Assembly: GCA_964392925.1 (NCBI GenBank)
Contig: CAYMRP010000001.1
Coordinates: 229,585 to 293,584 of the forward strand
Source of the DNA: an uncultured Gammaproteobacteria bacterium
GTDB taxonomy: Bacteria; Patescibacteriota; Microgenomatia; Daviesbacterales; UBA10151
DNA: 64,000 bases
Direction: 5' to 3'
Part shown: positions 6,909 to 61,737 of the stretch, piece by piece
Layout: every line of letters begins with the position of its first letter
Position numbering within the stretch: the stretch's first letter is position 1
Translations under genes and position numbers: made by a program
Notes under the pieces: generated by a model
The model's database searches: none
What the model was told of the DNA's origin: nothing
What the model saw: only the letters and a program-made list of their open reading frames with translations

Positions 6909-7868
6909 TTAAACGATTGACTTTGCTTGAGCCACAAGCTCCCTTGCTGTGGGATAATTTTCAAAAAGATAATCCATAGCTTTTACTGCGTTTGCTTCAA
7001 TTTTTTTAGCTCTATCAGCAATGTCATTATTGCCATTAATAATGATCTGTTCCATGTTACTCATTGGTAAAACACTTTGAGCAGAAAGCCTATCTCGTTG
7101 ATCGTCAGCTAACGCTAACTGCTGTCGAAGAGGGAATAGATGTCTCATAAGCTTGACATCATTACCCAATACTCTCAGTAGGTTTCCACTCTCTTTAGAG
7201 ATAATGGAATTGAACTTGTTGGGTAAACTGTTGTTGCTACCTGCCTGTACCATATTCTGTTTGCAAGTTGCTGTCACACTTTCCAAATCCAAATACAGTG
7301 CGTTTACCCAGCCTCTTTCCTCCTTTGACTGATCGATTTCTAATAAAAGATGTGTGTAGTCCATCGCTCTCGCTGTTCCCGATCCACGCGCCCAAAATTC
7401 AAGTGTTGTATCTTGAGCCTTTTTAATTGCATGCGGACGTTTATCGCTCTTGGGGATTTTAACAATAACAACATGTTTGCCTCCTATCTTGATTACTTTA
7501 ATTTCTTCGAAACTGATTATTGGAATTGTTAATCCTTTATCGAGATATTTCTGGGTAATTCTTTTACCAACTTCTTTCGCATCTGTAATTCCAACAATCC
7601 TTTCGAGCTTTGTCTTTCCGGCTGTATTGCTTGCATCTAGAATGCCGAAAAATAAAAATCCTCCAAGAGTATTTGCGAAGGTGGCAAATGCTTTTCTGAT
7701 AGAATAAACTTTATCCGCTTCTAAACTATCAAATCCTTCTTTGAAGTCGAAGTAAAGATCCTCTTCGTTACCATTTATCAGAAGGTCTTTAATGACATCC
7801 TCTGTAATTTCTTCAATTTTTGTATTTTGGTTTATCTGAAGTCCCATAAAGTATGCATATTCTATCAA
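6909..7868 (-). CDS. AlbA_2 (Schlafen-like / divergent-AAA N-terminal DNA-binding) domain protein
   Basis: The N-terminal about 130 aa match the AlbA_2 pattern (EDLYFDFKEGF ... FANTLGGFLFFGILD ... IVGITD). The C-terminal about 180 aa are uncharacterised. The gene lies 145 bp from the 3' end of tRNA-Lys. Confidence 0.65.
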   Translation of the reverse strand: MIEYAYFMGLQINQNTKIEEITEDVIKDLLINGNEEDLYFDFKEGFDSLEADKVYSIRKAFATFANTLGGFLFFGILDASNTAGKTKLERIVGITDAKEVGKRITQKYLDKGLTIPIISFEEIKVIKIGGKHVVIVKIPKSDKRPHAIKKAQDTTLEFWARGSGTARAMDYTHLLLEIDQSKEERGWVNALYLDLESVTATCKQNMVQAGSNNSLPNKFNSIISKESGNLLRVLGNDVKLMRHLFPLRQQLALADDQRDRLSAQSVLPMSNMEQIIINGNNDIADRAKKIEANAVKAMDYLFENYPTARELVAQAKSIV

Positions 7869-8014: not shown

Positions 8015-8089
8015 TGGTGAGCCGAGTGGGATTCGAACCCACAACCGATGGATTAAGAGTCCATTGCTCTACCGTTGAGCTATCGGCCC
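8015..8089 (-). tRNA. tRNA-Lys (anticodon CTT), CCA encoded
   Basis: The reverse complement folds as a cloverleaf: acceptor GGGCCGA/TCGGCTC, anticodon stem ATGGA/TCCAT with loop CTCTTAA, T-loop GGTTCGAATCC, and a 3' ACCA. Confidence 0.9.
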
Positions 8090-52980: not shown

Positions 52981-53147
52981 GTAATTAATCTATAACCTGC
53001 CTTAAATTATTGGAAAACCCCATTAAAGATAATTGATTTTGCTCTAGCCTTAAAAATTGATATAATACTCGAGCACCAAGGGGTACAAGCATTTCATCTA
53101 TTTCTTGTTCTAAAAAAGTGGATAGCAGAAAATGTTTGGGTTCGATT

Positions 53148-53220
53148 GCCCCCGTAGCTCAGTGGATAGAGCAAGACGGTTCTAACGTTTTGGTCGGGGG
53201 TTCGAGTCCCTCCGGGGGTG
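53148..53220 (+). tRNA. tRNA-Arg (anticodon TCT), CCA not encoded
   Basis: The sequence is GCCCCCGTAGCTCAGTGGATAGAGCAAGACGGTTCTAACGTTTTGGTCGGGGGTTCGAGTCCCTCCGGGGGTG. The anticodon loop is GTTCTAA, and G32 is unusual. The 5' end may be off by one. Confidence 0.75.
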
Positions 53221-53389
53221 CAAAACAAAAAGTTAGGCTTTTACGCCTGGCTCTTTTTGTTTTAACTCTCAGGAGAACTCAACTGCGATTTAGCCTCAAG
53301 ACTTCGGCATTTTAATTTGATTATTTACCAATAGATGCTTGTAATTTATCAGCGGAAGCAAGTTCGGCTTTGCAAAGCAAAGAGTGTAT

Positions 53390-53408
53390 AGTCCCTCCGG
53401 GGGTGCAA
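53390..53408 (+). repeat. 19-nt direct duplicate of the tRNA-Arg(TCT) 3' end (agtccctccgggggtgcaa), att-site-like
   Basis: The sequence is identical to 53205-53223 (tRNA T-loop to 3' end plus 3 nt of flank). Between the two copies a long hairpin (AAAACAAAAAG...CTTTTTGTTTT, 53224-53265) sits at the tRNA 3' end. Confidence 0.6.
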
Positions 53409-53528
53409 TATCGCTATAACAATCTAATCGTTTACCCAAAATTTTACACCCTCTATTTTTGAAGCTAATTTGGTTCCAAGTATAGTCTTATAGTGTATTT
53501 CTGAGCCTGTTTAGAGTATAATTCCATA

Positions 53529-54269
53529 ATGATAGGCGAAGTTTTAAGACCACATGAGTTTGATGAGCGAAATCTTTTTGCTCGATTTCTCGAGCGATCA
53601 AGGGCTTCCAATATCCCTATGAACTTCACTCAGGCAGAAAGAAGAATTGTTGCAGCTGTTACCCCTGAACTATTAGTACCCCATTCTAGATTTACAGGGA
53701 TTTCTCCAGATTACACAGAAATTGCTGCTGGGTTAGTTCAGAGAGTATTTCCTACCCCTGATCTAGCCATTTATGCATTAATGTACGGAAAAACAGTCTC
53801 TTCTTTTAAGTATTGGGATCACTTTAATTCTCAAATAAGTCCAATGAGAGATGAATACCAAAAAAGGAACTCTGATTATAATGAATTTATAGAACGTATG
53901 GCAGGCCATTTTAATTGCCAAACCGATCAAGCCCCACTTCATGCCTTAAGCAGGCCAATTACAGCTGATGACATGAACTTCTATAGTGGTAGGATTACAG
54001 AACTAGAGCCTATTATTAAAAATGTTAATGAAGTCTCGGAACAAGTAAAGGGCTTAGCCGAATTTTCCGCTAGAACGATTATGGCGCAAGAATCAGCATG
54101 GACCTTGCCTTTTACAGATCTTGATATTGCTGTCCTTGAAATGATGGGTGGAAAAGTTAAAGAAGGCCCTCGTCCTACTGTGGAAGATTTGCAAGGTGTT
54201 AGAACTTACATGGAAGATTATTTTGCGGATGAGAAAAACAGAGATAGAATAGCGCGTATCGGAGAATAG
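53529..54269 (+). CDS. Hypothetical cytoplasmic protein (orphan gene next to the tRNA-Arg att-like repeat)
   Basis: The 246-aa ORF has no TM segment and no recognised motif. Confidence 0.5.
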   Translation: MIGEVLRPHEFDERNLFARFLERSRASNIPMNFTQAERRIVAAVTPELLVPHSRFTGISPDYTEIAAGLVQRVFPTPDLAIYALMYGKTVSSFKYWDHFNSQISPMRDEYQKRNSDYNEFIERMAGHFNCQTDQAPLHALSRPITADDMNFYSGRITELEPIIKNVNEVSEQVKGLAEFSARTIMAQESAWTLPFTDLDIAVLEMMGGKVKEGPRPTVEDLQGVRTYMEDYFADEKNRDRIARIGE

Positions 54270-54406
54270 ACTTTATCACTTAACTATTTCTAATCCCTAA
54301 TGGTAGTACAAAGCTTACTGTGGACTAAAGCTAGACTTTAATAACTCATCCCAGGCTCTAATTGAACCTAGAAGCTGATTCCAATTGTTAGGGTAGTGAT
54401 TGGGTC

Positions 54407-57379
54407 CTAAAACCCAAACATTTTCTTGATATTCTTAAAAGTTACTGAAATCCAACCTTCAGATGAATTTGACACAACTGGCACAGTAGGGGATGCTACT
54501 TTAGTAGGGGCAGGCTGGCTATCCTGTGATTGCTTTTGCAAAACTTGTGGATCAAAAACCGTTTCTTCCTTAATATTCTGTTTTATCTTAGCAGGTTGTT
54601 TAGCAGTGCTTGTAAGTGTCGTTGTTAAAGGCTTCTGATTCTTATAGAAGACAGATTTGGTTGCAGGACGTGATGCGGTTCTAATAGCTAATGTTTTCCC
54701 CCAATTCCCAGGAACACATGAATTCATCGCTCGTAATCTAATGTAATAAGTTGTGTTAGGAGATAAATTCCCGATAACAAACCCCGAACCTGATAGCGGT
54801 GCCATAAAGCGGTCTTCATTTTCTTTATACCCATAACCCACCGAATATCCAGAGCTCCCGGCCACCGGAGCAAAATAAATTGTCGCACTGTTGTTTGTTG
54901 TATCTATCTGGAACAAATCCGGAGTTCCTTGAGGTGCCGATGCATTGCAAGAACCTGTATCCGAGTTACCGGAAGAGCTGACTGAAGCAGTCTGAGCACC
55001 GGAATCACTGTTCGCGTTGCTGACATTTAACACCAGAGAATATGTAGATGATAGATTCTGATGGACATCCCTGAAACGAATGTATACGGTCTTAGTTCCC
55101 TGACCGCCGGATAAATTGAAGGTAGGTGAGCCGGAGTACCACTGCCAGTCTGCTCCTATGAAAGATGGATCCTCCGAAATCTGCATTTGTAAATTTGTAG
55201 ATGAATCAAAATTATCGGAAGCTGATACTGCCAGGGTGGCCGTATTCGAATTTATAGTAGTTTGTCCTCCTTGAGCACCCAAGCTTCCAGTTGGAGATGT
55301 GGAATCGTTGCTTGACGGAATTGAAATCGTTTCAGCGTGATTTGCTACTTTATAAAATTCAACATCATCCACATACACAGCATCTCCTGACTCAAATGTA
55401 TGCAGGACATCCAGTCTGACACTGGCAGTTGAAGCAGCTGTTGTTAATTTCATCGTGACATACTTCCAATAGCTTGCTGTTGTATTTATATTTGCAGTAT
55501 TTGTTTGAGCAGAACCATTTGTGATATCAACAAATCTTAATCTGGCAAATGAGCTGCCCGGAGTCTGAACAGTAGTCGCTTTTACCCTGGCATTTATAAA
55601 ATAGTCAGTGTTTGCTTCAAGCGATGGAACCAAATTTCCAGTATAGTTAACATAAACACTGCTCGCTACTCCAGTCAATTTTAAGGACTTTGTGCCGCTA
55701 AAAAACTCAGAGGTGTCTGAAGAGGCTGAGGCTCTCTGCTGCCAATTGGTCGGAAAAGTAGCAACTGTTTCAAATGAAGGGTTCGAAACAATATTCTGAG
55801 CCGATAAGCTTGGACCCACTGGAATTGCACTCGAACAGGCAGTTGTTGTACTAACTGATAAATTTGGATTTCCTGAAGAACCAGGTGTATCTCCATCAGC
55901 AAACTGCCCGCCGGTTGCACAATTGTCACTTAAAGTACTTGGAGAAATTAAATCTTCTCCTCCGTAATCAGTCTCCCAGCCCTCTCTGACAAACAAAGTA
56001 TTGGTATGAGAATAAATCCGGTTTCCACTAACTGTAGCGCTGCCAATCGTGGCGCATTTACCAGCATTATAAGTACTAGCATTATCAGTCGGATTACAAA
56101 CATCTGAAGCCTGATCTATATATGCCAAATAAGTTGCACTCCGTACAATATTATCTATAACCATATTATTGGTGTATTGCAGCTGGGCTATCGACGGTGT
56201 AACACCGCCATACTGCACAATTCTGCTGCTTTTTGGATTCATATAAACCAACTGAGTCACTTTACCGTTCACAAGATTACCTTTGACTAAGCTATCAGCA
56301 GCCATCATGCTAATAGCGTTATAACTTGAGGCCTCTTTACCTTCAAAGGTATTTTTATAATTCACTACATACTGAGCCACTCCCCATTCGTTCTCATCAA
56401 CATCGCCATCGCCGTCCCTATCGCGGGTAAAATCATCATTTGTTAGATAAAGAAGCCCTCCATTGACAGTTTTTTTACTAATCGAGGAATAGATGATTCC
56501 ACCACCATGAAGACCATCCAGATAAGAATGATATTCTTCTTTCCCATCAAAAGTGCAACCTCTACACCAAAAATTTGTCAGTGTAGCAATGCCGTACAAA
56601 CTCCCATCATGTGTTCCAATTCCAGTGCCGGAAGTATTTCTAATAGTTATCCTATCCAGCACGACATCCCTGGCTGTTGCTAAATGAACCAAAATATGGG
56701 AAGTCGCATTTCCGTCAAAAATAATATCTTTTAAATAGATATTCTTAATAGGATTCTGAATACAGTGGTTCGATTTCTCATGAAGGTCGCTTGCCGGATT
56801 TCGTGCTCCGGAAAAACCTGTATAGTCAGCTGACTCAGGGCAACCCAGGATTTCAAATTCTTCACGATCTGCCCAATCATCTTCATAATCTTGTGCTGTA
56901 GCATAAGCATGACTTACCTGAAGTATTGTTCCACCGCCTGAATCACCAATAAAATGAATATTATCCCGCTTTAATGTTTGAGTAAAAATCCCTCCGGATT
57001 CAGAATAATCATTTGTTAGATGGACATCTCCACAATAAGTTCCGGCGGATAGTTGTAAGGTATAACCTTTAGTTGGAATAGTCGGCAAGGCATCTAAAGC
57101 ATCCTGAATGCTGGTCCCGCTGCCGCATCCGCCGTCAGGAGCTACCTCAATAACTGTTGGAGGATTTGGCACATATCCGATAGAATATCCGGATGCATTA
57201 TCCGGATTCAAGGGATGACTGTTCCACCAGGTCTCAACATCCTGAGAGTAATTAGGATCTGTGGAAGGAATTCCAGGATCATCCGCTCTTACTATCTCAG
57301 CTGTAAAAGAGCAGCTAACTGAAAGAATCATCAAATAAATAACAATGAATAATTTTTTGTAGAATTGTAAAGTGCGCAT
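54407..57379 (-). CDS. Large secreted protein: right-handed parallel beta-helix (pectin-lyase-fold-like) region, a CBM_4_9-like carbohydrate-binding module and a C-terminal Cys-bracketed FN3 module
   Basis: A signal peptide is present. The central region is beta-helix-like (ISMMAADSLVKGNLVNG..IVQYGG, NNMVIDNIV). The CBM-like segment carries NIVSNPSFE...VYVDDVEFYKV. The FN3 segment carries APQGTPDLFQIDTTNNS...NTTYYIRLRAMNSC. Confidence 0.7.
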   Translation of the reverse strand: MRTLQFYKKLFIVIYLMILSVSCSFTAEIVRADDPGIPSTDPNYSQDVETWWNSHPLNPDNASGYSIGYVPNPPTVIEVAPDGGCGSGTSIQDALDALPTIPTKGYTLQLSAGTYCGDVHLTNDYSESGGIFTQTLKRDNIHFIGDSGGGTILQVSHAYATAQDYEDDWADREEFEILGCPESADYTGFSGARNPASDLHEKSNHCIQNPIKNIYLKDIIFDGNATSHILVHLATARDVVLDRITIRNTSGTGIGTHDGSLYGIATLTNFWCRGCTFDGKEEYHSYLDGLHGGGIIYSSISKKTVNGGLLYLTNDDFTRDRDGDGDVDENEWGVAQYVVNYKNTFEGKEASSYNAISMMAADSLVKGNLVNGKVTQLVYMNPKSSRIVQYGGVTPSIAQLQYTNNMVIDNIVRSATYLAYIDQASDVCNPTDNASTYNAGKCATIGSATVSGNRIYSHTNTLFVREGWETDYGGEDLISPSTLSDNCATGGQFADGDTPGSSGNPNLSVSTTTACSSAIPVGPSLSAQNIVSNPSFETVATFPTNWQQRASASSDTSEFFSGTKSLKLTGVASSVYVNYTGNLVPSLEANTDYFINARVKATTVQTPGSSFARLRFVDITNGSAQTNTANINTTASYWKYVTMKLTTAASTASVRLDVLHTFESGDAVYVDDVEFYKVANHAETISIPSSNDSTSPTGSLGAQGGQTTINSNTATLAVSASDNFDSSTNLQMQISEDPSFIGADWQWYSGSPTFNLSGGQGTKTVYIRFRDVHQNLSSTYSLVLNVSNANSDSGAQTASVSSSGNSDTGSCNASAPQGTPDLFQIDTTNNSATIYFAPVAGSSGYSVGYGYKENEDRFMAPLSGSGFVIGNLSPNTTYYIRLRAMNSCVPGNWGKTLAIRTASRPATKSVFYKNQKPLTTTLTSTAKQPAKIKQNIKEETVFDPQVLQKQSQDSQPAPTKVASPTVPVVSNSSEGWISVTFKNIKKMFGF

Positions 57380-57529
57380 AGTTTAGTCTTATAATTCACT
57401 TTACACTAAGTAGCCAAAGCCTAAAAGACTTCAAAATTACAAAAATTTCTTGTCCAGGCGTGAAATCAAAAATTCTTGAACAATTTCTTACAATTAACTA
57501 AAATTTAATATGACATAATAAAATACATA

Positions 57530-59176
57530 ATGATTAGGTTGCATAAGGGTTGTTTAATCCTCTTCAGCATTTTTCGCAAATACTCTCCCGTGCTCCTAAG
57601 TGCGCTAATGATGTTCTATCAGTTCCCGTCTAATCTTCAAGCCGCCACCGGGACAGACACAATGGCTGCTTACTGGAAGATGGACGAAACAACGGCTGGA
57701 TCTTCTGTTATAGACAGCAGTGGTGATGGGAATACCGGAACTCCTGGTGGGGCGGGGGGAAGTCAGAATGGGCCTCAACCCAGCACCGATGTTCCGACCA
57801 CCTCCTTTCCCGATCCCAGATCTTTGAATTTTGATGGTACAGATGATGATGTTGCAGTCTCAGGATTGGTAGTCGGCACCAGTCAGATAGTGACTCTGAC
57901 GGCCTGGGTCAATTTAACTACCCGTGATACATCCGGCTCCGAAATAATTTCCCTCGGTGATCACGTCCTTATTCGTGCTGACGACAGCTCCAGTCAGAAA
58001 ACTACTGGACAATTTTATAATGGTACTACTTGGATTGGGACCGGTTCAGGTGTTGATATCGCGGGAAGCGGTTGGCGACACGTGGCTTATGTAGCCCATC
58101 AAGTATCAGGTAATTTCTATCAGCAAATATATATAGATGGTGTGCTGGATACTCAGACTACTAACGCCACCAGCATCGTTTATACAGGTCAGGGTCAAAA
58201 CACGAAAATCGGGGAGCACGGTAATGGGAGTACAAACTATAATTTTAACGGCAAAATTGATGACGTTAGGGTGTACACCAGAGCTCTCTCAGCAGCCGAA
58301 ATAGCAGATCTGGCAGCAGGGGAGCACACCGAAGCTGTTTGGGACGGCTCATCATCTACCGACAACGAAGTAGCCGCTAATTGGGATATTAATGCAGTTC
58401 CCGATCCTTATACCAGGCTGGTTATTGCCTCCGCAGCCAATCAGCCATCTTTAACCACAAACCTAATAGCAGCTTCCCTTACTATTAATAATGGTGCTGT
58501 CTTTTCTGCTAACTGTTTCACAGTTACATATAATGATAGCGGCAGCTTAGTAAACAACGGCACTTATAATGGTTGCCCCTCACCAGCTGCCAATTCGAAC
58601 TCGTCGTCAAGTCTTTCTTCCGATTCATCTCCTCCGTCCTGCAACAGCCAAGCTCCTACGGAGGCTCCAGATTTGTTTCAGGTTGACAGTTTTAATAATT
58701 CCGTAGCTCTTCACTTCACCACGATCAGGGGTATTAGCGAGTATTCAATTCAGTATGGCCCAGATTCTAACGCAAACCTCTACGGTGATATTTTTAACTA
58801 TAGCGGACCGGCCTGGATCATTGATCGCCGCATTCATCAACTAACTCCATCAACAACCTACTATTTCAAAGTAAGAGCCATTAATGGCTGTAACGCCGGA
58901 CCCTGGAGTCAGACAATCTCAGTCAAAACAAGAAGTAAATGGAATCTGTTTGCCGGTTATTTCTCCGGAGGGAAAACTCTAAGTAATGATTCCTCAGGCA
59001 ATCAGACTGCCGGTGATGTGATTGACTCCTGTGATTATCTAGTCAGACCAGGAGACAGTTTATGGGAGATATCCCTTAGGAAGTGGAACACTGGAACCAG
59101 ATATAAAGATATCGATGAAATCAATAAATTGGATGGTAAGCCATTGAGAACTGGCCAGCAGCTCAAACTGTGTTAG
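57530..59176 (+). CDS. Secreted protein with a LamG/concanavalin-A-like lectin domain, an FN3 module and a C-terminal LysM domain
   Basis: The LamG-like segment carries LNFDGTDDDVAVS..TLTAWVNL..IYIDGVLD..FNGKIDDVRVYTRALSAAEIADL. The FN3 segment (APTEAPDLFQVDSFNNS..TTYYFKVRAINGC) is homologous to the FN3 of the divergent neighbour. The LysM domain carries YLVRPGDSLWEIS...LRTGQQLKL. Confidence 0.75.
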   Translation: MIRLHKGCLILFSIFRKYSPVLLSALMMFYQFPSNLQAATGTDTMAAYWKMDETTAGSSVIDSSGDGNTGTPGGAGGSQNGPQPSTDVPTTSFPDPRSLNFDGTDDDVAVSGLVVGTSQIVTLTAWVNLTTRDTSGSEIISLGDHVLIRADDSSSQKTTGQFYNGTTWIGTGSGVDIAGSGWRHVAYVAHQVSGNFYQQIYIDGVLDTQTTNATSIVYTGQGQNTKIGEHGNGSTNYNFNGKIDDVRVYTRALSAAEIADLAAGEHTEAVWDGSSSTDNEVAANWDINAVPDPYTRLVIASAANQPSLTTNLIAASLTINNGAVFSANCFTVTYNDSGSLVNNGTYNGCPSPAANSNSSSSLSSDSSPPSCNSQAPTEAPDLFQVDSFNNSVALHFTTIRGISEYSIQYGPDSNANLYGDIFNYSGPAWIIDRRIHQLTPSTTYYFKVRAINGCNAGPWSQTISVKTRSKWNLFAGYFSGGKTLSNDSSGNQTAGDVIDSCDYLVRPGDSLWEISLRKWNTGTRYKDIDEINKLDGKPLRTGQQLKLC

Positions 59177-59245
59177 AGCAGATAAACCTGATATTTACCC
59201 AGCTAATTTGACAATCTTGGTAATATTTTGTTAAAGTTTTTAAAG

Positions 59246-60945: not shown

Positions 60946-61737
60946 ATGCGCCCAATCTTCTCAGGAGTTTTATCGTTCGGTTTAATTAATATCCCCATCA
61001 AAGTTTACTCAGCCACAGCAGGGGTTGAAATGGATCTAAGAATGCTACACAAAACAGATCTTTCTCCAATCCGCTACGCTAAAATCTGCCGGAAAGATGG
61101 CAAAGAGATTGCTATGGGAGACATAGTTAAAGGTTATGAATATCAGGAAGGTGATTATGTTGTTTTAACCGAAGATGATTTCAAAGCCGCTAATGTCAAA
61201 CGAACAGAAGCCATAGATGTTGTGGATTTTGTTAAAGAATCAGAAATAGATACCATCTATTTTGAAAAACCTTATTATCTCGAACCGGACAAAGGGGCTG
61301 GGAAAGCCTATTCAATTCTTCTTGAATCCCTTAGAAAAGCCCGTAAAGTTGGTGTCGCCAAATTTGTCTTTCATAATCGCGAGCATTTAGGAATAATAAA
61401 ACCGCACGCTAACTTAATTGTTCTTGAACAAATGAGATTCGAAGATGAAGTCAAAGCTCCTGAAAAACTAAATCTGCCAAAGCATGAAACCATCAGAAGC
61501 AAAGAATTGACAATGGCAATGTCTTTGATCGACCATTTAACGGAAAAATTTGACATCGGCGACTACCACGACAGTTACAGAAAAGAACTCGAAGCTTTAA
61601 TTAAAAATAAAATTAAAGGCCATAAACCAGTAAAAATAGATAAAGGAGAGGCTCCTCATCCAACAAAATCTGCCGATCTGATGACTCTCCTCAAAGCCAG
61701 CCTGGAAAAAGCCAACAGCCGCCCAATGCAAATTTAA
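60946..61737 (+). CDS. ku: Ku protein (non-homologous end joining DNA-end-binding protein)
   Basis: The N-terminus MRPIFSGVLSFGLINIPIKVYSAT matches the bacterial Ku core. The C-terminal tail is Lys-rich. Confidence 0.9.
   Translation: MRPIFSGVLSFGLINIPIKVYSATAGVEMDLRMLHKTDLSPIRYAKICRKDGKEIAMGDIVKGYEYQEGDYVVLTEDDFKAANVKRTEAIDVVDFVKESEIDTIYFEKPYYLEPDKGAGKAYSILLESLRKARKVGVAKFVFHNREHLGIIKPHANLIVLEQMRFEDEVKAPEKLNLPKHETIRSKELTMAMSLIDHLTEKFDIGDYHDSYRKELEALIKNKIKGHKPVKIDKGEAPHPTKSADLMTLLKASLEKANSRPMQI

What the first reader, a model, noticed from the sequence alone, without database searches (positions are those of the whole stretch)
53148..54269. Duplicated tRNA-Arg(TCT) 3' end (19 nt) about 170 bp downstream of the tRNA, with a long hairpin between and an orphan gene beyond: att-site remnant
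agtccctccgggggtgcaa occurs at 53205-53223 and again at 53390-53408. The first copy runs from the tRNA T-loop through its 3' end plus 3 nt. A 19-nt exact repeat by chance in 64 kb is very unlikely, and the T-loop-to-3'-end segment is the canonical core of tRNA-targeting integrase att sites. The 167 bp between copies contain a long palindrome (AAAACAAAAAG-N18-CTTTTTGTTTT). Immediately after the second copy comes a 246-aa hypothetical protein gene with no assignable function. Possible interpretations are a tandem or decayed integration leaving attL/attR-like cores close together, a miniature integrative element, or a tRNA-derived small-RNA locus.
Basis: seen in the sequence. Interest (0 to 1): 0.6.

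Follow-up and report, generated by a model that had tools for sequence, protein, structure and literature searches.

The report
Orphan tRNA-Arg tail marks insertion hotspot
A 19-base copy of the end of a tRNA-Arg gene lies 185 bases downstream of that gene; it is most likely the ordinary scar that foreign DNA leaves when it inserts into a tRNA gene, and relatives show different inserts at the same spot, none with a recombinase gene.

Summary
AGTCCCTCCGGGGGTGCAA occurs exactly twice (53205-53223, the T-loop-to-3'-end of tRNA-Arg(TCT); and 53390-53408), which 0 of 100 shuffles reproduced. The second copy is not part of a tRNA or a recognisable pseudogene.

Comparison with related metagenomic contigs shows that the tRNA 3' end is a recurrent insertion point:
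- L009: the tRNA abuts a conserved promoter module and the 246-aa gene.
- L008: an orphan tRNA-Arg tail abuts the same module.
- L004 and L007: 2.6-2.9 kb of unrelated genes lie between tRNA and gene.
- L018 (about 93% identical flanks): keeps hairpin, spacer and second copy, and has an extra 560-bp insert at the tRNA end, bounded distally by a decayed tail copy. Beyond the second copy a different 4-kb gene set replaces the window's 5.8 kb.

No integrase was found in any allele, nor in the 30 window ORFs scanned. Phage, plasmid and viral collections matched only the tRNA.

Best reading: an attR-type scar of site-specific insertion, now an integrase-less, CIME-like remnant. This is a known kind of feature.

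One oddity remains. The hairpin and the 53 nt ending in the second copy are conserved well above neutral divergence (P about 2e-4 and 7e-4), unlike the spacer between them. The 246-aa gene is the tRNA's ancestral neighbour, not cargo.

The parts
53148..53221 (+). tRNA-Arg(TCT), intact; CCA not encoded (the gene is followed by CAA). This is the attL-side full copy.
   Evidence: ARAGORN. Rfam RF00005 at 60.4 bits. 100% identical in L018.
53205..53223 (+). Repeat copy 1: the last 3 T-loop bases, the T-stem 3' strand, the acceptor 3' strand, the discriminator, and CAA.
53222..53263 (+). Long hairpin with an A-tract and a T-tract (bidirectional terminator-like), directly abutting the tRNA. 41/42 identical in L018, where it follows a decayed tail copy instead of the tRNA.
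   Evidence: P=2e-4 against 23% neutral divergence.
53264..53353 (+). Middle of the spacer, poorly conserved (54/92 aligned columns identical to L018).
53354..53389 (+). Conserved flank left of copy 2 (33/36 identical in L018). It contains GTTCGGC and a CTTTGC-AAA-GCAAAG mini-hairpin.
53390..53408 (+). Repeat copy 2: an orphan tRNA-Arg 3'-end fragment (attR-type). The first 17 nt are identical in L018 (7467-7483).
   Evidence: No tRNA or pseudogene signal.
53409..53433 (+). Last stretch still alignable with L018 (18/25). Homology to L018 is lost beyond about 53434, which is the left edge of the variable island.
53484..53528 (+). Conserved promoter module of the 246-aa gene: motif AGTCTTATAGT (53484-53494) and TATAAT (53517-53522), 6 nt before the ATG (looks leaderless). 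In L009 and L007 this module directly follows the tRNA. In L008 it follows an orphan tRNA tail.
53529..54269 (+). 246-aa gene of unknown function, all-helical, from a small family. It is the ancestral downstream neighbour of tRNA-Arg(TCT) in this clade.
   Evidence: Family size. Loci. Confident model (pLDDT 92) with no significant fold match.
53434..59204 (.). Variable island relative to L018: 246-aa gene, conserved non-coding block, 990-aa and 548-aa secreted-type proteins. L018 has 4.2 kb of other genes here (YjbQ, polysaccharide deacetylase, Hsp20, SPW, P-loop). Synteny resumes at about 59205.
53095..53147 (+). About 53-nt stretch between the shared tRNA promoter and the tRNA start, absent from L018. 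It contains the D-loop-like AGTGGATAG and the T-loop-like GGGTTCGATT.
   Evidence: Local alignment to the tRNA, P=0.013.

Best explanation
The second 19-mer is an attR-type orphan copy of the tRNA-Arg(TCT) 3' end. It is the footprint left when foreign DNA inserts into the 3' end of a tRNA gene by site-specific recombination. The incoming DNA restores the tRNA, and a duplicate of the T-loop-to-3'-end segment ends up on the far side of the insert.

Only 166 nt now remain between the copies: a terminator-like hairpin, a diverged middle, and a conserved 36-nt right end. The unit carries no recombinase, so it is either a decayed remnant or a non-autonomous miniature insert. In the vocabulary of integrative elements it is CIME-like.

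The junction between this tRNA and the promoter of its ancestral neighbour, the 246-aa gene, is a recurrent insertion point in this lineage. The lineage is probably a CPR/Patescibacteria bacterium near Daviesbacteria.

Shown: the duplication, its exact register with the tRNA end, its absence from any tRNA-like context, and different inserts at the same junction in relatives, including one occupied-versus-empty pair.

Inferred: that a tyrosine-type integrase acting in trans made the insertions, and the order of events.
For: 1. The 19-nt repeat is exact, unique to these two sites, and beyond chance.

2. It spans the last T-loop bases to the 3' end plus 3 nt. [quoted passage not shown]

3. The sequences that follow the two copies are unrelated (hairpin versus TATCGCTATAAC...), so this is an insertion footprint and not a tandem duplication.

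4. L018, L027 and L028 (92.7% identical over 6.2 kb of upstream flank, tRNA 100% identical) give an occupied-versus-empty pair. L018 reads tRNA-GTGCAG|560 bp|GGCTTATCTGGGCGTGCAA|AACAAAAAG-hairpin. The window reads tRNA-GTGCAA|AACAAAAAG-hairpin.

5. L004 and L007 contigs start inside the same tRNA. They diverge from the window within 1-2 nt after GTGC and carry unrelated genes (HTH_3, DUF4238 and orphans) before the 246-aa homologue.

6. In L009 the tRNA directly abuts the conserved promoter module and gene. In L008 an orphan 14-nt tRNA-Arg tail of the L009 sequence type (GGGCG, not GGGGG) abuts the same module, downstream of a different tRNA and its hairpin (0 of 5000 shuffles). The orphan tail matches the tRNA type of its own sub-lineage in each case.

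7. Copy 2 marks a replacement boundary. To its right the window and L018 carry different gene sets (5.8 kb versus 4.2 kb) until synteny resumes at 59205.

8. Decayed elements that keep attL and attR but have lost their integrase, and that accrete in tandem at the same site, are documented (PMC5704250).
Against: - No integrase or other recombinase is present in any of the six allele types, nor in the 30 window ORFs scanned. None of the insert proteins tested matches PHROGs.
- No phage, plasmid or viral contig carries the spacer, the flank or the core.
- No allele was found that lacks exactly this 185-bp unit, so its insertion is inferred and was not observed.
- Copy 2 is followed by 75 nt that are not the ancestral flank. 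The promoter module starts only at 53484, so a single clean Campbell-type event does not explain the present structure.
- The hairpin and the 53 nt ending in copy 2 are conserved between window and L018 far above neutral (P=2e-4 and 7e-4). A dead scar would not be expected to show this.
- The GTDB representative scans found neither relatives of the 246-aa family nor this tRNA 3' end, so sampling is thin.
Confidence: 0.7

Rival explanations
1. Whatever its origin, copy 2 plus its conserved left flank is now a functional cis element kept by selection or by gene conversion with the tRNA gene. One possibility is a live attachment or recombination anchor used to swap the downstream island. Another is a protein-binding or RNA element that borrows the tRNA tail.
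For: - 50/53 positions (36-nt flank plus 17 nt of the core) are identical between window and L018, against 23% neutral divergence (P=7e-4). The hairpin is 41/42 identical (P=2e-4). The spacer between them is only 54/92 identical.
- The island swap begins 25-45 nt to the right of copy 2.
- L008 has a similar layout before its orphan tail: GTTCGGC, a 6-7-bp mini-hairpin, about 10 nt, then the core.
Against: - Folding energy around copy 2 is no better than shuffles on either strand (z from -0.9 to +0.5).
- There is no Rfam match at E<=5 and no convincing promoter.
- Only two independent sequences, plus one distant analogue, are available.
- The GTTCGGC similarity was noticed post hoc.
- L004, L007 and L009 lack the unit, so it is not required near the gene.
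- The downstream genes differ in identity and orientation between window and L018, which argues against a role as a 5' UTR or operator.
Confidence: 0.17
2. Copy 2 is the tail of a second tRNA-Arg gene, a tandem duplicate that decayed, or it is the product of replication slippage or unequal crossing-over. No mobile DNA is involved.
For: - tRNA-like scraps also occur 5' of the tRNA: AGTGGATAG and GGGTTCGATT in a 53-nt stretch absent from L018 (P=0.013). Local tRNA-derived debris therefore exists.
- No recombinase was found anywhere.
Against: - ARAGORN and Rfam find no tRNA at copy 2, even at E<=5.
- The 70 nt upstream of copy 2 are no more similar to the tRNA body than shuffles (P=0.19).
- The identity stops sharply at the T-loop.
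- The sequences after the two copies are unrelated, so no tandem unit is repeated.
- The same junction carries unrelated inserts in L018, L004 and L007, which slippage does not explain.
Confidence: 0.07
3. It is a chance repeat with no biological meaning.
For: None beyond the short length of the repeat.
Against: - 0 of 100 shuffles gave two copies; the expectation is 0.02.
- The repeat is in exact register with a tRNA 3' end.
- The same orphan copy is conserved in L018, L027 and L028.
- An analogous orphan tail exists in L008.
Confidence: 0.01

Closest known systems
attL/attR direct repeats of tRNA-integrating elements (prophages, ICEs, genomic islands): one complete and one partial tRNA copy
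   Same: - The duplicated segment runs from the T-loop to the 3' end of the tRNA and slightly beyond.
- The full tRNA sits on one side and an orphan fragment on the other.
- Related genomes differ in what lies at the junction.
- These features are described as pervasive in PMC9897764.
   Different: - Only 166 nt lie between the copies, where 9-120 kb is usual.
- No integrase, excisionase or phage or conjugation gene is present.
- The orphan copy is not directly followed by the ancestral flank.
- Excision was not observed.
CIMEs (cis-mobilizable elements) and tandem accretion at att sites, e.g. ICESt1/ICESt3-related elements of Streptococcus thermophilus
   Same: [quoted passage not shown]
- Several inserts are stacked at one site: L018 has the tRNA, 560 bp, a decayed core, 185 bp, then the core.
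- The definition and the accretion model are in PMC5704250.
   Different: - CIMEs are kilobases long and recognisably derived from a known ICE or IME. Here no parent element is known.
- Mobilisation in cis by an incoming element is untested.
- The host is a probable CPR bacterium, for which no such element was found here.
tRNA-linked flexible genomic islands (replacement hotspots next to tRNA genes)
   Same: - Two genomes about 93% identical carry different gene sets (5.8 kb versus 4.2 kb) between the tRNA region and a conserved right flank.
- There is no GC anomaly.
   Different: - The right boundary carries no third tRNA-tail copy.
- The cargo in both genomes consists of ordinary accessory genes without mobility functions.

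Membership tests
Integrase-mediated tRNA-gene integration scar (attL/attR pair) | Direct repeat identical to the 3' part of a tRNA gene, with a full tRNA at one end and an orphan fragment at the other | tested here: met
   19/19 identical copies at 53205-53223 and 53390-53408. The tRNA is intact and the orphan copy has no tRNA context.
Integrase-mediated tRNA-gene integration scar (attL/attR pair) | Presence or absence polymorphism of the DNA at the junction among related genomes (occupied versus empty site) | tested here: met
   L018 has 560 bp inserted exactly at the tRNA end, with a decayed distal tail copy, and the window is empty for it. L004 and L007 carry other inserts. L009 has none. 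No empty site was found for the window's own 185-bp unit.
Integrase-mediated tRNA-gene integration scar (attL/attR pair) | A tyrosine or serine recombinase gene within or next to the repeat-bounded DNA | tested here: not met
   No Phage_integrase, Resolvase or Recombinase hit in any insert or in the 30 window ORFs scanned. The 246-aa protein has no recombinase-like fold.
Integrase-mediated tRNA-gene integration scar (attL/attR pair) | Excision products (circular form, restored empty site) or a matching attP on a phage or plasmid | tested here: not met
   There were 0 viral contigs with the core, flank or hairpin. Phage and plasmid BLAST hits cover only the tRNA body. Read-level excision junctions are not testable with these tools.
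CIME (cis-mobilizable element) | Lacks integration and transfer genes but retains both att sites | tested here: met
   The 166-nt spacer has no plausible gene and both cores are intact.
CIME (cis-mobilizable element) | Derived by deletion from an identifiable ICE or IME, and mobilisable in cis by a related incoming element | not testable with these tools
   No parent element was found in any collection searched. Mobilisation needs an experiment.
Second tRNA gene or pseudogene | Cloverleaf, or residual similarity to the tRNA body upstream of the shared 3' end | tested here: not met
   ARAGORN found none. Rfam found none at E<=5. Local alignment gave P=0.19.
Structured small RNA | Stable or covarying secondary structure, or a match to a known family | tested here: not met
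   Spacer z=-1.6 with 16 of 200 shuffles as good. The copy-2 region gave z from -0.9 to +0.5. There is no Rfam match.

The most novel reading that the evidence does not exclude
The 185-bp unit (terminator-like hairpin, variable middle, conserved 53-nt right end that finishes in the tRNA tail) is not a dead scar. It would be a maintained, integrase-less miniature element or recombination anchor that an unidentified trans-acting recombinase uses to exchange gene cassettes next to tRNA-Arg(TCT) in CPR bacteria. The analogous layout in L008 would then be a second member of the same element family, adapted to that host's tRNA sequence.
Probability: 0.1. Interest if true: 0.55.

Novelty: new member of a known kind. 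Interest (0 to 1): 0.25.

Why it matters
In itself this is a routine genomic scar. It is useful mainly as an annotation flag: an orphan tRNA fragment that marks an island boundary.

Two points give it modest value. First, it documents a recurrent insertion and replacement hotspot at tRNA-Arg(TCT) in a poorly sampled, probably CPR lineage. I found no mobile element or integrase for this lineage in any collection searched. Second, the inserts are unusually small (0.19-2.9 kb) and all lack a recombinase, while the two ends of the 185-bp unit are conserved above the neutral rate. If those ends prove to be functional att arms, the locus would be a handle for finding the unknown recombinase or phage that services it.

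Tried and rejected
- **16-nt perfect inverted repeat (53127-53142 / 54411-54426) bracketing the tRNA, gene and block.** I considered it as the ends of a transposon or an inversion footprint. I rejected it as probably chance. Shuffles give about 2.7 perfect 16-mer inverted pairs per 64 kb, and about 0.13 pairs closer than 1.5 kb. Neither arm exists in any relative.
- **Older decayed tRNA tails just upstream of the promoter motif.** These were not significant in the window (P=0.14) or L004 (P=0.79), and only weak in L007 (P=0.03).
- **Foreign origin of L018's decayed tail copy.** It matches its own tRNA type at 12/19 and the L008 type at 13/19, so there is no discrimination. Its 7/19 mismatches are within neutral expectation (P=0.13).
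- **The 246-aa protein as a hidden recombinase.** The 31-sequence alignment gave a confident all-helical model (pLDDT 92). It has no significant PDB or viral fold match (best E=0.12 and 0.3) and no family match.
- **Orphan genes next to the 246-aa homologue in L004 and L007.** They are unrelated to each other.
- **GTDB species representatives.** The family scan found nothing. The 18-mer core gave 3 hits, none in a tRNA.
- **Metagenome 18-mer scan.** It gave 14 hits, of which only L018 is relevant.
- **Viral hits to the L008-type 16-mer.** All are in contigs of 52-68% GC with no extended similarity, so they are chance matches.
- **More distant epimerase relatives (L032-L035).** They have no tRNA-Arg after the epimerase, so they add no alleles.

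Full report
**Observation.** The 19-mer AGTCCCTCCGGGGGTGCAA is present at 53205-53223 and 53390-53408, both on the + strand. It occurs nowhere else in the window, even with 3 mismatches. No shuffle out of 100 gave two copies. ARAGORN and Rfam place tRNA-Arg(TCT) at 53148-53220/1. Copy 1 therefore covers the last three T-loop bases, the 3' strands of the T and acceptor stems, the discriminator, and three further bases (CAA; CCA is not encoded).

Between the copies lie 166 nt. They begin with a 42-nt A-tract/T-tract hairpin (53222-53263) that scores as terminator-like. The 246-aa ORF starts 120 nt after copy 2.

**Copy 2 is not a tRNA.** ARAGORN finds four tRNAs in the window and none at copy 2. 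Rfam finds nothing but the real tRNA in 53000-54500, even at E<=5. The 70 nt upstream of copy 2 align to the tRNA body no better than shuffles (P=0.19). The sequences that follow the two copies are unrelated, so no tandem unit is repeated. Neither the spacer nor the copy-2 region folds better than shuffled sequence.

**Context.** The locus reads pyruvate kinase (-), an NAD-dependent sugar epimerase (+), the tRNA, the 246-aa gene (+), a 990-aa (-) and a 548-aa (+) secreted-type protein with LamG, fn3 and LysM domains, and then small orphans and Ku. There is no GC anomaly. Epimerase homologues at 63-68% identity are labelled Candidatus Daviesbacteria, so the organism is probably a CPR/Patescibacteria bacterium. 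Neither the 246-aa family nor this tRNA 3' end was found among 185,579 GTDB species representatives.

**Comparative evidence.** The 246-aa protein has only five relatives in the 5.8-billion-protein set and 32 clusters in the 1.84-billion representative set. Their contigs, plus one metagenome contig found with the 18-mer core, give six allele types of the same junction.

- **L001-L003:** the same strain as the window.
- **L009** (protein 53% identical): tRNA-Arg(TCT) is followed after 3 nt by the motif AGTCCCATAGT, then a TATACT box, then the gene. Nothing is inserted.
- **L008** (54%): the same motif and gene are preceded by an orphan tail, CCTCCGGGCGTGCA. This tail has the L009 sequence type and is supported by 0 of 5000 shuffles. 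It lies downstream of the 3' end of a different tRNA, a hairpin and about 70 nt.
- **L004** (83%): the contig starts inside the tRNA. After GTGCAG come an Xre-type HTH gene, a DUF4238 gene and a 318-aa orphan (2.6 kb), and then the motif and the gene.
- **L007** (79%): the tRNA end is followed directly by the motif and a TATAAT, but these drive a 197-aa orphan. A second, diverged copy of the module 2.9 kb further on drives the 247-aa gene.
- **L018, L027 and L028** (a wastewater metagenome; 92.7% identical to the window over 6.2 kb of upstream flank; tRNA 100% identical): after the tRNA lies a 560-bp insert with a 105-aa putative membrane ORF. Next comes a decayed tail copy, GGCTTATCTGGGCGTGCAA, joined to the same hairpin exactly as copy 1 is in the window. 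The spacer follows, and then copy 2 with 17 of 17 leading bases intact.

About 25-45 nt beyond copy 2, homology between L018 and the window ends. L018 carries YjbQ, a polysaccharide deacetylase, Hsp20, an SPW protein and a P-loop protein (4.2 kb) where the window has 5.8 kb. Synteny resumes at window 59205. More distant family members (L030, L031) and more distant epimerase loci (L032-L035) are not linked to this tRNA.

**Interpretation.** The alignment of six junctions indicates an ancestral order of tRNA-Arg(TCT), promoter module, then 246-aa gene. The gene is therefore the tRNA's old neighbour and not cargo.

Insertions have repeatedly hit the tRNA end or the sequence just after it. Three of them left a duplicated tRNA tail: window copy 2, the decayed copy in L018, and the orphan tail in L008. 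In each sub-lineage the tail matches that sub-lineage's tRNA type (GGGGG versus GGGCG in the acceptor strand). L018 versus the window is a clean occupied-versus-empty pair for the 560-bp insert.

[quoted passage not shown] The stacking seen in L018, and the lack of any recombinase, fit the description of decayed att-flanked remnants (CIMEs) and tandem accretion (PMC5704250).

**What does not fit neatly.**
- No integrase or other recombinase occurs in any insert or in the 30 window ORFs scanned.
- The spacer, flank and core are absent from phage, plasmid and viral collections. Only the tRNA body matches phage tRNA-Arg genes.
- No allele lacking precisely the 185-bp unit was found.
- Copy 2 is separated from the ancestral promoter module by 75 nt of unexplained sequence, so more than one event must be assumed.
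- The unit is not drifting uniformly. Against a pooled 4-fold-site divergence of 23% between window and L018, the hairpin differs at 1 of 42 positions (P=2e-4). The 36-nt flank plus 17 nt of copy 2 differ at 3 of 53 (P=7e-4). The middle of the spacer differs at 38 of 92 aligned columns.

The hairpin may simply be a working terminator: for the tRNA in the window, and for the convergent minus-strand genes in L018. The conservation of copy 2 and its flank could reflect gene conversion with the invariant tRNA gene 185-760 bp away, continued use as a recombination site, or some other cis function. L008 shows a loosely similar layout (GTTCGGC, a short hairpin, about 10 nt, then the core), but I noticed that resemblance post hoc and it is not statistically secure.

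**The 246-aa protein.** With five sequences the AlphaFold model was useless (pLDDT 40). With 31 family members it became confident (pLDDT 92.4, pTM 0.85). The model is all-helical, with two helices of about 50 residues forming a long hairpin. Foldseek found no significant match in the PDB (best E=0.12, TM<=0.32; generic BAR-like, ClyA-like and SMC-arm hits) or in viral models (best E=0.3). No family library matched. It does not resemble any recombinase, and its function remains unknown.

**Verdict.** The finding is real and the att-remnant reading is the best supported (about 0.7). It is a new example of a well-known kind of feature in a poorly sampled lineage. The one open question is why the two ends of the 185-bp unit are conserved above neutral. 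I score interest at 0.25. The most novel reading not excluded is a maintained integrase-less mini-element or recombination anchor, at a probability of about 0.1.

Noticed in passing
window 54287-54389 (also L004:4200-4309 and L007:1584-1686): A non-coding block of about 100 nt between the 246-aa stop and the convergent 990-aa stop is 79-86% identical in L004 and L007, although the DNA around it does not align. In L007 it lies upstream of the gene homologue instead of downstream. RNAalifold gives 26 pairs on either strand with 2 compensatory pairs (for example TCTA/TAGA to TCTG/CAGA). There is no Rfam match. It may be a small RNA or a recombination site, but three sequences are too few to decide.
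   Followed up: partly
window 53127-53142 and 54411-54426: A perfect 16-nt inverted repeat brackets the tRNA, both repeat copies, the 246-aa gene and the conserved block. Shuffles give about 2.7 such pairs per 64 kb (about 0.13 this close together), and neither arm occurs in any relative. It is probably chance.
   Followed up: yes
window 53095-53147: A stretch of about 53 nt between the shared tRNA promoter (TGATATAAT at 53058-53066) and the tRNA start is absent from L018. It contains the D-loop-like AGTGGATAG and the T-loop-like GGGTTCGATT (P=0.013 against shuffles). It may be debris of another tRNA-related event on the 5' side.
   Followed up: partly
window 53517-53531; L004:2710-2725; L008:190-206; L009:1075-1095; L007:70-86: In every lineage a TATAAT-like box lies only 6-12 nt before the ATG of the 246-aa family gene, and before the 197-aa gene in L007. 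No Shine-Dalgarno sequence is present. This suggests leaderless or near-leaderless mRNAs.
   Followed up: no
L007:3802-8116: In L007 the 247-aa homologue is followed by two large paralogous-looking proteins with faint ParB_N hits, a radical SAM protein, a hexapeptide transferase and a Ser/Thr kinase, before the epimerase and pyruvate kinase. The tRNA-to-gene segment is inverted relative to the epimerase compared with the window. This may be a defence-like or partition-like cassette.
   Followed up: no
L024 (metagenome contig ODAJ012100422.1), whole 14.2 kb: A chance hit of the 18-mer landed in a contig that carries 37 tRNA genes and a tmRNA in 14 kb, all on one strand. This is a dense tRNA array of the kind seen in jumbo phages or some plasmids. 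It is unrelated to the finding.
   Followed up: no
window 6909-7868 (-), next to tRNA-Lys 8015-8089: A Schlafen/AlbA_2-domain protein sits directly beside another tRNA gene. This may be another small tRNA-linked accessory or defence gene.
   Followed up: no
window 60946-61737 versus L027:18800-20050: The window has a Ku gene where the about-93%-identical relative has a DEAD-box helicase after the shared 166-aa gene. This is a second replacement point within 8 kb of the first.
   Followed up: no
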